From a virus (lineage: Duplodnaviria > Heunggongvirae > Uroviricota > Caudoviricetes): a stretch of DNA of 31,646 nt. The notes beneath the pieces are model-generated. The model searched no databases and was not told where the DNA came from. It saw only the letters and a program-made list of their open reading frames with translations. The position numbers were made by a program, and so were the translations under genes. The stretch is from positions 1 through 31,646 of IMG/VR virus record IMGVR_UViG_648276671_000019. One strand, 5' to 3'. Shown piece by piece: positions 30,310 through 31,646 of the stretch (position 1 is its first letter; every line of letters starts with the position of its first letter).

Positions 30310-30519
30310 GTGGGACTGGATTGCGTACCTATATCAACCTACTGCCGCAACGCGGGAGAAACGGTTGATGCCGTTAACAAACGGATACAAAGAGGAATAT
30401 GGAAAGAAGGGGTACATGTATTAAAAGTCGACGGAGTTAAAGAACGTTGGGTCGACTTAATGGAGATTACAAAATGGGCAAGAAAGAACAAGGATCATTA
30501 TCTCTCCCTAGAGGAGTAA
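30310..30519 (+). CDS. Putative excisionase-like DNA-binding protein
   Basis: 69-aa ORF with GTG start and GAGGTG Shine-Dalgarno, overlapping the integrase start as lambda xis does; assignment is mainly positional. Confidence 0.45.
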   Translation: MGLDCVPISTYCRNAGETVDAVNKRIQRGIWKEGVHVLKVDGVKERWVDLMEITKWARKNKDHYLSLEE

Positions 30520-31646
30520 CTATTCGGCAGCATAAAACTGGTAGCACTCTGGTTATCACTTTTACATATAAAGGGGTTCTGTGTCGGGAGCCCCTCTCCA
30601 GAATGGAAGTAAACGCGCGCGGTGTGAAGTACGCCGAGCGTCTGCTGGGAGAAATAAAAAATCAGATTATCGATGGTACCTTCGAATATGCAAAATACTT
30701 CCCCAACTCCCAAAAGCTGGAGTTGTTCGGGGGAGTGAAAAAAAACAAAAATATAAAATCTTACCTGGATGAATACCTGATTATCTGCCAGAACCGTAAC
30801 CTGTCACCATCGACAATTAGAGGTTATGAAAAATGCTTGTCTGCGCTGTCAGCATTGCATAAATTTCATGTATCAGAACTGACACCTGCTGTACTAAAAA
30901 ACTGGATCGCCAGCAGAAAAACAAAACTGAAAACGATCCGCAATAATCTTTCGTTTCTGCGCAGCGCCATAGATGAAGCGGTGACCGATGGTTTGTTAAC
31001 AATAAATCCTGTCACGCTAGTCAGCGCCAGCCGGTATCACGTATTGGACAACACACCAGGCAGTGGTGATTACGAGGTCGATCCCTTTACACCAGCGGAG
31101 ACGGCAGCAATCTATGACGCCTGTCATTACCCGGAATGGCGAAATCTGTTTCGCTTTGCCTTTAATACCGGACTGCGTAGCTCAGAATTGTGCGCGTTGC
31201 GCTGGACGGATATAGACTTCATCGGCAACACCGCGCATGTTCAAACTGCAAGCGTAGTCGGGGTAATCAAAAGCACCAAAACAAAAGCCGGCACCCGCAA
31301 AGTGCAACTGAACAGCGAAGCGCTGGCGGCTCTTCAGGCACAAAAGCCCTACACGGCGCTAAAGAGCGACTTCATATTCAGCGATCCGAAAACTCGCGCT
31401 CCTTGGGCAAACGCAGATGCGATCCGAAAAAAAGCCTGGGGACCAACCCTTAAAAAAGCTGGTGTACGCTATCGCAATCCGTACCAGACACGCCACACGT
31501 TCGCCACTCGGCACATTAGCCAGGGCGTAAACCTGTTCTGGCTTGCTGGTCAGATGGGGCATAAAGGACCGGAAATGCTGTTCAGACATTACGGCTCTTA
31601 CCTTGCAGAATACGATGGAAAAACGGCGATTTCTGCAACCCCGTAA
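30474..31646 (+). CDS. int: Tyrosine integrase (lambda Int family)
   Basis: ATG at 30474 with GGAG upstream; C-terminal catalytic region with R...HTFATRH...LAGQMGH...FRHYGSY (catalytic Tyr); TAA stop at the last bases of the window. Confidence 0.9.
   Translation: MGKKEQGSLSLPRGVTIRQHKTGSTLVITFTYKGVLCREPLSRMEVNARGVKYAERLLGEIKNQIIDGTFEYAKYFPNSQKLELFGGVKKNKNIKSYLDEYLIICQNRNLSPSTIRGYEKCLSALSALHKFHVSELTPAVLKNWIASRKTKLKTIRNNLSFLRSAIDEAVTDGLLTINPVTLVSASRYHVLDNTPGSGDYEVDPFTPAETAAIYDACHYPEWRNLFRFAFNTGLRSSELCALRWTDIDFIGNTAHVQTASVVGVIKSTKTKAGTRKVQLNSEALAALQAQKPYTALKSDFIFSDPKTRAPWANADAIRKKAWGPTLKKAGVRYRNPYQTRHTFATRHISQGVNLFWLAGQMGHKGPEMLFRHYGSYLAEYDGKTAISATP

What the first reader, a model, noticed from the sequence alone, without database searches (positions are those of the whole stretch)
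30310..31646. Integrase ends exactly at the window edge, so the attachment site is just outside
With int at the right end and tail gene L at the left end, the window holds the prophage interior but neither junction. The host insertion target and the tail-fibre genes cannot be assessed from this sequence.
Basis: inference. Interest (0 to 1): 0.2.

Follow-up and report, generated by a model that had tools for sequence, protein, structure and literature searches.

The report
Prophage integrase next to ssrA junction
The window ends on the stop codon of an ordinary, intact phage integrase, and the sequence beyond it shows the prophage sits in the 3' end of the tmRNA gene ssrA, a well-known phage landing site, so the finding is correct but routine.

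Summary
An intact 390-aa tyrosine integrase (30474-31646, +) ends with its TAA on the last three bases of the window. A separate 69-aa excisionase ORF (30310-30519, another frame) overlaps its start by 46 nt. The window's first three bases are the stop codon of lambda-type tail gene L, so both edges are gene-boundary cuts, not biology.

I found the source: NCBI GCA_000176655.2, scaffold GL884370.1, with 0 mismatches over the two ends compared. There, 132 nt of phage arm follow the int stop. Then comes a 27-nt copy of the ssrA (tmRNA) 3' end, CGGGTTCAACTCCCGCCAGCTCCACCA, at +133 to +159 past the window end. Host DNA (ypjA side) follows. The matching unoccupied site, ssrA joined directly to that flank, occurs in 1,386 of 5,426 complete E. 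coli genomes.

A related prophage in a complete genome is bracketed by the same 27-nt direct repeat, 41.6 kb apart. The induced Cronobacter phage phiES15 has an integrase 87% identical and an annotated attP with the same core.

The left junction is not assembled: scaffold gaps start 23 nt beyond L, and the scaffold ends inside a tail-fibre gene.

This is already known biology of low interest.

The parts
30474..31646 (+). int: 390-aa tyrosine integrase with N-terminal arm-binding domain; stop codon = last 3 bases of the window
   Evidence: Pfam PF12167 (residues 12-79) and PF00589 (206-373). phrog_1 integrase, E 7e-65. Alignment to Tn1549 Int structures 6en0/6emy places R235, K269, H341, R344, H363 and Y373. 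87% identical to phiES15 integrase. The exact protein is found on 5 public contigs.
30310..30519 (+). xis: 69-aa excisionase (GTG start after GAGGTG), overlapping int by 46 nt in another frame
   Evidence: phrog_2917 excisionase, E 1.5e-40. 87% identical to the annotated excisionase of phiES15. No Pfam or NCBIfam hit.
30155..30301 (+). 48-aa conserved small ORF upstream of xis, function unknown
   Evidence: phrog_3871, E 3.4e-35, unknown function. Annotated as a hypothetical protein in relatives.
29909..30151 (+). DUF4222 protein, early-left-operon accessory gene
   Evidence: PF13973, E 4e-14. Called as an 80-aa gene in the source scaffold.
1..699 (-). lambda-type minor tail protein L; its stop codon is the first 3 bases of the window
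   Evidence: PF05100, E 1.4e-99. In the scaffold an N-gap begins 23 nt beyond its stop.

Best explanation
The region is the xis-int recombination module at the int-proximal end of a lambdoid prophage inserted in the 3' end of the tmRNA gene ssrA. The prophage has an HK97-type head, a lambda-type tail, a Q antiterminator and a cI-like repressor. The integrase is a heterobivalent tyrosine recombinase, with an arm-binding domain plus a core-binding and catalytic domain. It recombines a 27-nt core in attP, identical to the last 27 nt of ssrA (most of the T-arm to the CCA end), with the same sequence in the chromosome. Integration leaves a complete ssrA whose 3' end is phage-supplied at the tail-fibre end of the prophage. 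The displaced native 27-nt end remains next to int. In the source genome that int-side junction lies 133-159 nt beyond the last base of the window, after a 132-nt phage arm. Xis would direct excision. The coincidence of the window edge with the int stop codon is an artefact of where the window was cut. Shown: gene identities, the int-side junction, the empty site, and the flanking repeats in a relative. Inferred: the crossover position within the core, the arm and IHF sites, and the activity of Int and Xis.
For: The source scaffold is identical to window 20474-31646 and 1-10699, with 0 mismatches. The flank reads int stop, 132 nt, CGGGTTCAACTCCCGCCAGCTCCACCA, then the ypjA-like autotransporter, a resolvase fragment and an amylase-like gene. 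A partial Rfam tmRNA match ends exactly at +159, at model position 374/374. Six loci share the 132-nt arm and core but diverge right after the shared CCACCAA into three different right flanks, which marks the phage/host boundary. The predicted empty attB (ssrA fused to this genome's right flank) is contiguous at 99% identity or more in the best hits, and covers at least 80% of the query in 1,386 of 5,426 complete E. coli genomes. In NZ_CP027550.1 a related prophage lies between smpB-ssrA and the same 27-nt repeat, at 2221718-44 and 2263354-80. The circular record of UV-induced phage phiES15 annotates attP as GGGTTCAACTCCCGCCAGCTCCACCA, and both its arms align with the E. coli junction arms. 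The literature reports ssrA as a common integration site for lambdoid, Stx2f and cdt-carrying phages in E. coli and relatives (PMC11597368; PMC10673567).
Against: The left junction of this particular genome was not seen. The scaffold has N-gaps in K and after J, and ends inside a tail-fibre gene. Completeness of the prophage and the second repeat copy are therefore inferred from a relative, which is 91.7% identical over the int region and 93.6% identical over 70% of the first 25 kb. No experiment shows that this Int or Xis is active. The middle of the window (10700-20473) was not compared with the scaffold.
Confidence: 0.93

Rival explanations
1. The window comes from a free or linear phage genome record that simply ends at int, so there is no host junction nearby.
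For: Both window ends coincide with gene stops, as would happen if a phage record were opened at int.
Against: The identical sequence lies at about 8270-39915 of a 574-kb bacterial scaffold. Chromosomal genes follow it (ypjA-like autotransporter, pinH-like fragment, amylase-like gene). That flank is the native ssrA-ypjA region in 1,386 complete genomes.
Confidence: 0.01
2. The element is a decayed, immobile prophage remnant. The int-side att copy would then be a fossil, and there may be no matching left junction.
For: The left junction is unassembled, and gene K and the region after J are hidden in scaffold gaps. Relatives at ssrA often sit beside degraded islands.
Against: Int keeps all six catalytic residues. 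Xis is intact. The window carries a full set of head, tail, lysis, Q, replication and repressor genes with no obvious truncations. The close homologue phiES15 is inducible according to its record.
Confidence: 0.1
3. Part of the functional attachment site (accessory arm-type or bending-protein sites) extends back into the int coding sequence, so the window does contain a piece of attP.
For: Arm regions of lambda-type attP sites span 80-160 nt on each side of the core (established knowledge of lambda attP). Here only 132 nt separate the int stop from the core.
Against: The candidate repeated motifs lie within the 132 nt outside the window: AATATGTACGTAAAATGCACAT 81 nt before the core, and GGAC-type repeats. 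In phiES15 two extra genes sit between int and the conserved arm, so the arm functions independently of the int 3' end.
Confidence: 0.05

Closest known systems
Cronobacter sakazakii temperate phage phiES15 (NC_018454.1) int-xis-attP module
   Same: Integrase is 87% identical over 388 aa and excisionase 87% identical. The annotated attP core GGGTTCAACTCCCGCCAGCTCCACCA matches 26 of the 27 nt found next to int here. Both attP arms are alignable with the E. coli junction arms.
   Different: phiES15 has two extra genes (about 1.5 kb) between int and attP, whereas here the core is 132 nt from the int stop. The host genus and the rest of the genome also differ.
ssrA-integrated lambdoid prophages of E. 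coli and E. albertii (Stx2f- and CDT-I-carrying phages; e.g. the prophage in NZ_CP027550.1, and phi467 LN997803.1)
   Same: Same insertion site and same gene order: ssrA, accessory genes, tail fibre, J, I, K, L ... xis, int, 27-nt repeat. The int region is 82-98% identical at the nucleotide level. ssrA is described as a typical site for such phages (PMC11597368, PMC10673567).
   Different: No stx genes are seen in the window. Whether cdt or other cargo lies at the unassembled tail-fibre end of this prophage is unknown. In many relatives a CP4-57-like island follows in tandem, whereas here native ypjA-side DNA follows.
Bacteriophage lambda Int/Xis/attP
   Same: Heterobivalent tyrosine integrase with an arm-binding N-terminal domain. 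A small Xis gene overlaps the int start. int is transcribed toward attP at the prophage end opposite the tail genes.
   Different: Only a weak sequence match to lambda Int (E 2e-4, partial). The target is the 3' end of an RNA gene with a 27-nt identity block, rather than lambda's 15-bp core between gal and bio.
CP4-57 (IntA) and other P4-type islands at ssrA
   Same: Same chromosomal locus, the ssrA 3' end. They are often found in tandem with relatives of this prophage.
   Different: A different integrase lineage and orientation: the island's int directly follows the ssrA copy. They are not lambdoid phages.

Membership tests
Tyrosine site-specific recombinases (Phage_integrase, PF00589) | Catalytic domain matching the family profile above the curated threshold | tested here: met
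   PF00589 scores 70.7 bits against a cutoff of 27.1, over residues 206-373.
Tyrosine site-specific recombinases (Phage_integrase, PF00589) | Catalytic residues R-K-H-R-H/W-Y present | tested here: met
   R235 (GLRSSE), K269 (KTKAG), H341 and R344 (RHTFATR), H363 (QMGHK) and Y373 (RHYGS). They were placed by alignment to Tn1549 Int structures 6en0/6emy.
Lambda-type heterobivalent phage integrases | N-terminal arm-type DNA-binding domain | tested here: met
   PF12167 Arm-DNA-bind_2 scores 69.4 bits against a cutoff of 22, over residues 12-79.
Lambda-type heterobivalent phage integrases | Arm-type binding sites in attP arms actually bound by the N-domain | not testable with these tools
   Only candidate repeats were seen: an 18/22 direct repeat in the P and P' arms, and GGAC motifs. 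There are no binding data.
Lambda-type heterobivalent phage integrases | Adjacent excisionase (recombination directionality factor) | tested here: met
   The 69-aa ORF overlapping the int start matches phrog_2917 excisionase at E 1.5e-40. It is 87% identical to phiES15 Xis.
ssrA (tmRNA gene) 3'-end-targeting phage integration modules (phiES15-like) | attP/att junction core identical to the 3' end of ssrA next to int | tested here: met
   A 27-nt exact copy lies at +133 to +159 after the int stop in the source scaffold. A partial Rfam tmRNA hit ends there.
ssrA (tmRNA gene) 3'-end-targeting phage integration modules (phiES15-like) | Host DNA beyond the core is the native sequence downstream of ssrA (an empty site exists) | tested here: met
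   ssrA fused to this flank is contiguous in 1,386 of 5,426 complete E. coli genomes.
ssrA (tmRNA gene) 3'-end-targeting phage integration modules (phiES15-like) | Second copy of the core, as the end of an intact ssrA, at the other prophage end in the same genome | tested here: inconclusive
   The scaffold ends inside a tail-fibre gene. This feature was shown only in the relative NZ_CP027550.1.
Lambdoid prophage | Lambda-like module order with tail genes L/M/H, HK97-type head, lysis, Q antiterminator, replication, cI/cro-type switch, xis-int | tested here: met
   Pfam families of the called genes: Phage_tail_L, the tape-measure domains, Phage_capsid, Phage_portal, TerL, P21 holin, lysozyme, Antiterm Q, and a Peptidase_S24 repressor.

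The most novel reading that the evidence does not exclude
A strong hairpin followed by a T-run (CCCCAGT...ACTGGGGTTTTT) lies about 126 nt beyond the core on the far arm of attP. It is conserved between the E. coli relative and phiES15, with a base-pair-preserving change. It could serve two roles. In the lysogen it would be the phage-supplied terminator for the rebuilt ssrA. In the excised phage it would be a lambda sib/tI-like element downstream of int, so that int expression depends on whether the genome is integrated. This element is outside the window and was seen only in relatives.
Probability: 0.25. Interest if true: 0.25.

Novelty: already known. Interest (0 to 1): 0.07.

Why it matters
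It matters little beyond annotation. The work fixes the identity of the prophage's insertion site (the ssrA 3' end). It gives the exact distance of the junction from the window end. It also explains why the window stops where it does: a gene-boundary cut on the right, and assembly gaps just beyond the left edge. ssrA is a long-recognised hotspot for phages and islands, and this integrase has a close, already annotated homologue in phiES15.

Tried and rejected
(1) I looked for the window in complete E. coli genomes and in the phage collection. There was no identical record; the best int-region matches were 98% over 85% of the query, or 92% over 100%. An exact-protein look-up then found the source scaffold.

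(2) I tried to reach the left junction through the L protein. The scaffold ends in a tail-fibre gene and has two N-gaps, so the second att copy of this genome could not be seen.

(3) ARAGORN on the flanks of relatives found no tRNA or tmRNA gene, because only a 27-nt fragment is present. It was recognised by eye, by comparison with annotated ssrA and by a sub-threshold Rfam hit.

(4) Phage PhiR12_1 (82% nt identity) shows no ssrA core within 1.5 kb downstream of int, so it was uninformative.

(5) Pfam and NCBIfam give no family for the Xis ORF; only PHROGs and phiES15 identify it.

(6) The two Williams papers on tRNA/tmRNA integration sites are not held in the library. Statements about sublocation classes rest on my own knowledge.

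(7) Several translation calls failed on wrong coordinates and one literature query was malformed.

Full report
**Observation**

The window ends with the TAA at 31644-31646 of a + strand ORF. The mechanical ORF starts at the TTG at 30447. The in-frame ATG at 30474 gives a 390-aa protein. That length matches the 1173-nt genes annotated in RefSeq relatives and the N-terminus MGKKEQGSL of phiES15 integrase.

Pfam finds an arm DNA-binding domain (PF12167, residues 12-79, E 2.7e-19) and the Phage_integrase catalytic domain (PF00589, residues 206-373, E 1.7e-19). PHROGs gives phrog_1 integrase at E 7e-65. Alignment to the solved Tn1549 Int (6en0/6emy) places the catalytic residues at R235, K269, H341, R344, H363 and Y373. 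All are present.

The finding's start coordinate, 30310, is not the integrase. 30310-30519 is a separate 69-aa ORF in another frame, with a GTG start preceded by GAGGTG. It overlaps int by 46 nt. It matches the excisionase family phrog_2917 at E 1.5e-40 and is 87% identical to the annotated excisionase of phiES15.

At the other end, 1-699 (-) is a 232-aa Phage_tail_L protein (E 1.4e-99). Its stop codon is the first three bases of the window. So both edges sit on stop codons, which reflects how the window was cut.

**Where the window comes from**

An exact-sequence look-up of the integrase found five contigs. One is scaffold GL884370.1 (574 kb) of NCBI assembly GCA_000176655.2. The last 11,173 bases of the window are identical to that scaffold (0 mismatches). 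So are the first 10,699 bases. The window therefore corresponds to about 8270-39915 of the scaffold.

**The right (int-side) junction**

Past the int stop the scaffold reads as follows:
- 132 nt of A+T-rich sequence.
- CGGGTTCAACTCCCGCCAGCTCCACCA, at scaffold 40048-40074, which is +133 to +159 from the window end.
- ATCATGATTGG..., followed by a 1565-aa autotransporter gene on the opposite strand, a resolvase fragment and an amylase-like gene.

The 27-mer is identical to the last 27 nt of the annotated ssrA (tmRNA) gene, running from most of the T-arm to the CCA end. A sub-threshold Rfam tmRNA match ends exactly there, at model position 374/374.

Six loci carry this integrase or close relatives. 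They share the 132-nt arm and the core, then diverge immediately after the shared CCACCAA into three unrelated right flanks: the ypjA side, a CP4-57-type island, and another island. That divergence marks the phage/host boundary.

As a direct test, I built the predicted unoccupied site, ssrA fused to this genome's right flank, and searched for it. It is contiguous in one piece at 99% identity or more in the best hits, and 1,386 of 5,426 complete E. coli genomes hold it over at least 80% of its length. It is annotated there as ssrA followed by ypjA. The core does not occur inside the window, even with 3 mismatches.

**The left side**

Beyond L, an N-gap begins 23 nt after the L stop and hides K. 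Then come I, J (1066 aa), a second N-gap, and a tail-fibre gene fragment that runs off the scaffold end. The tail-fibre-side junction of this genome is therefore not assembled. That also explains why the window starts at L.

**Relatives that show the whole arrangement**

In the complete genome NZ_CP027550.1 a related prophage is laid out as follows:
- smpB, then ssrA.
- A dinI-like gene, cdtCBA, tail fibre, lom, J, I, K, L ... xis, int.
- The 27-nt repeat, then remnants of a CP4-57-like island.

This relative is 93.6% identical over 70% of the first 25 kb of the window, and 91.7% identical over the int region. The two copies of the 27-mer lie at 2221718-2221744 and 2263354-2263380, 41,636 nt apart. 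They have different sequence immediately outside them on each side.

The UV-induced Cronobacter phage phiES15 (circular record NC_018454.1) has an integrase 87% identical over 388 aa. Its annotated attP, GGGTTCAACTCCCGCCAGCTCCACCA, is the same core. The attP reconstructed from the two E. coli junctions aligns with phiES15 attP on both arms.

The literature describes ssrA as a typical, frequently used integration site for lambdoid phages in E. coli, E. albertii and other Enterobacteriaceae. These include Stx2f phages that carry cdtABC at one extremity (PMC11597368; PMC10673567). In complete E. coli genomes, 577 of 5,426 have a match to the int region.

**Mechanism**

Shown:
- An intact heterobivalent tyrosine integrase and an adjacent excisionase.
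- A 27-nt identity block with the ssrA 3' end beside int.
- Native ssrA-downstream DNA beyond that block.
- A matching empty site in other strains.
- Flanking repeats in a relative.

Inferred from established knowledge of lambda-type integration and of tRNA/tmRNA-gene integration (Williams 2002 and 2003, from memory; not held in the library): Int recombines the attP core with the identical 3' end of ssrA. The phage copy then completes ssrA at the tail-fibre end. The displaced native end stays beside int. Xis reverses the reaction.

Candidate accessory sites lie in the arms outside the window, and none has been tested:
- An 18/22 direct repeat: AATATGTACGTAAAATGCACAT 81 nt before the core, and AATATACACGTGAAATGCACGT 90 nt after it.
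- Several GGAC(A) motifs.
- A near-consensus IHF-like site next to the core (read by eye; no scan was run).

**Comparison and novelty**

This is a member of an already annotated group, the phiES15-like ssrA-targeting int-xis modules, in ordinary lambdoid prophages. Nothing about the integrase, the excisionase or the junction departs from what is known. The only mildly interesting side observation is a strong terminator-like hairpin about 126 nt beyond the core on the far arm:
- Free energy is -18.5 and -21.4 kcal/mol in the two phages, with z-scores of -5.3 and -4.1.
- It is conserved between the E. coli relative and phiES15, with a pair-preserving change.
- It probably terminates the rebuilt ssrA in lysogens.
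- In the excised phage it could act as a lambda tI/sib-like element downstream of int. This is speculative and lies outside the window.

**Verdict**

The insertion target is the ssrA 3' end. The int-side junction lies 133-159 nt beyond the window. The left junction is not recoverable from this assembly. This is already known biology of low interest.

Noticed in passing
window 15158-15310 (-): Two adjacent phage-borne tRNA genes, tRNA-Gly(UCC) and tRNA-Arg(UCU), lie between the Q antiterminator gene (16590-17414) and the lysis genes. Lambdoid and Stx-type phages often carry tRNAs at this position.
   Followed up: no
window 15510-16454 (+): A 314-aa ORF lies on the strand opposite to the surrounding late genes, in the Q-to-lysis moron position. 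It has no Pfam or NCBIfam family and matches only phrog_7003, of unknown function (E 1e-117).
   Followed up: partly
L007 10723-11434 and 15343-17028 (scaffold GL884370.1, just left of the window): Runs of N (scaffold gaps) start 23 nt beyond the stop of gene L and recur after J. The scaffold then ends inside a repetitive tail-fibre gene. This explains the left window boundary and why the left att junction is missing.
   Followed up: yes
L001 7583-9137; L002 7839-10427; L012 4341-6816: In several relatives the prophage is followed, after the 27-nt ssrA repeat, by a second integrase gene of a CP4-57-like island. In one EPEC-like strain the espC region comes further on. This is tandem accretion of elements at ssrA.
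   Followed up: partly
L011 8374-10473 (NZ_CP027550.1): The related ssrA prophage carries cdtA, cdtB and a frameshifted cdtC (cytolethal distending toxin type I), plus a DinI-like gene, at its tail-fibre end next to ssrA. Whether the window's prophage has such cargo cannot be seen.
   Followed up: no
L011 about 7871-7900 (126 nt past the ssrA end); equivalent in the phiES15 attP P' arm: A strong hairpin plus T-run (CCCCAGTTATCACCGACTGGGGTTTTT) is conserved with a pair-preserving change in phiES15. It is probably the phage-supplied terminator for the rebuilt ssrA, and it lies downstream of int in the excised genome.
   Followed up: partly
window 26479-28665 (+): The early-left operon carries an SPFH/Band_7 protein (275 aa), an ORF6N-domain protein (275 aa) and a 189-aa protein with a weak sliding-clamp-like match (dnaN, E 8e-5). 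All are accessory genes of unclear role.
   Followed up: no
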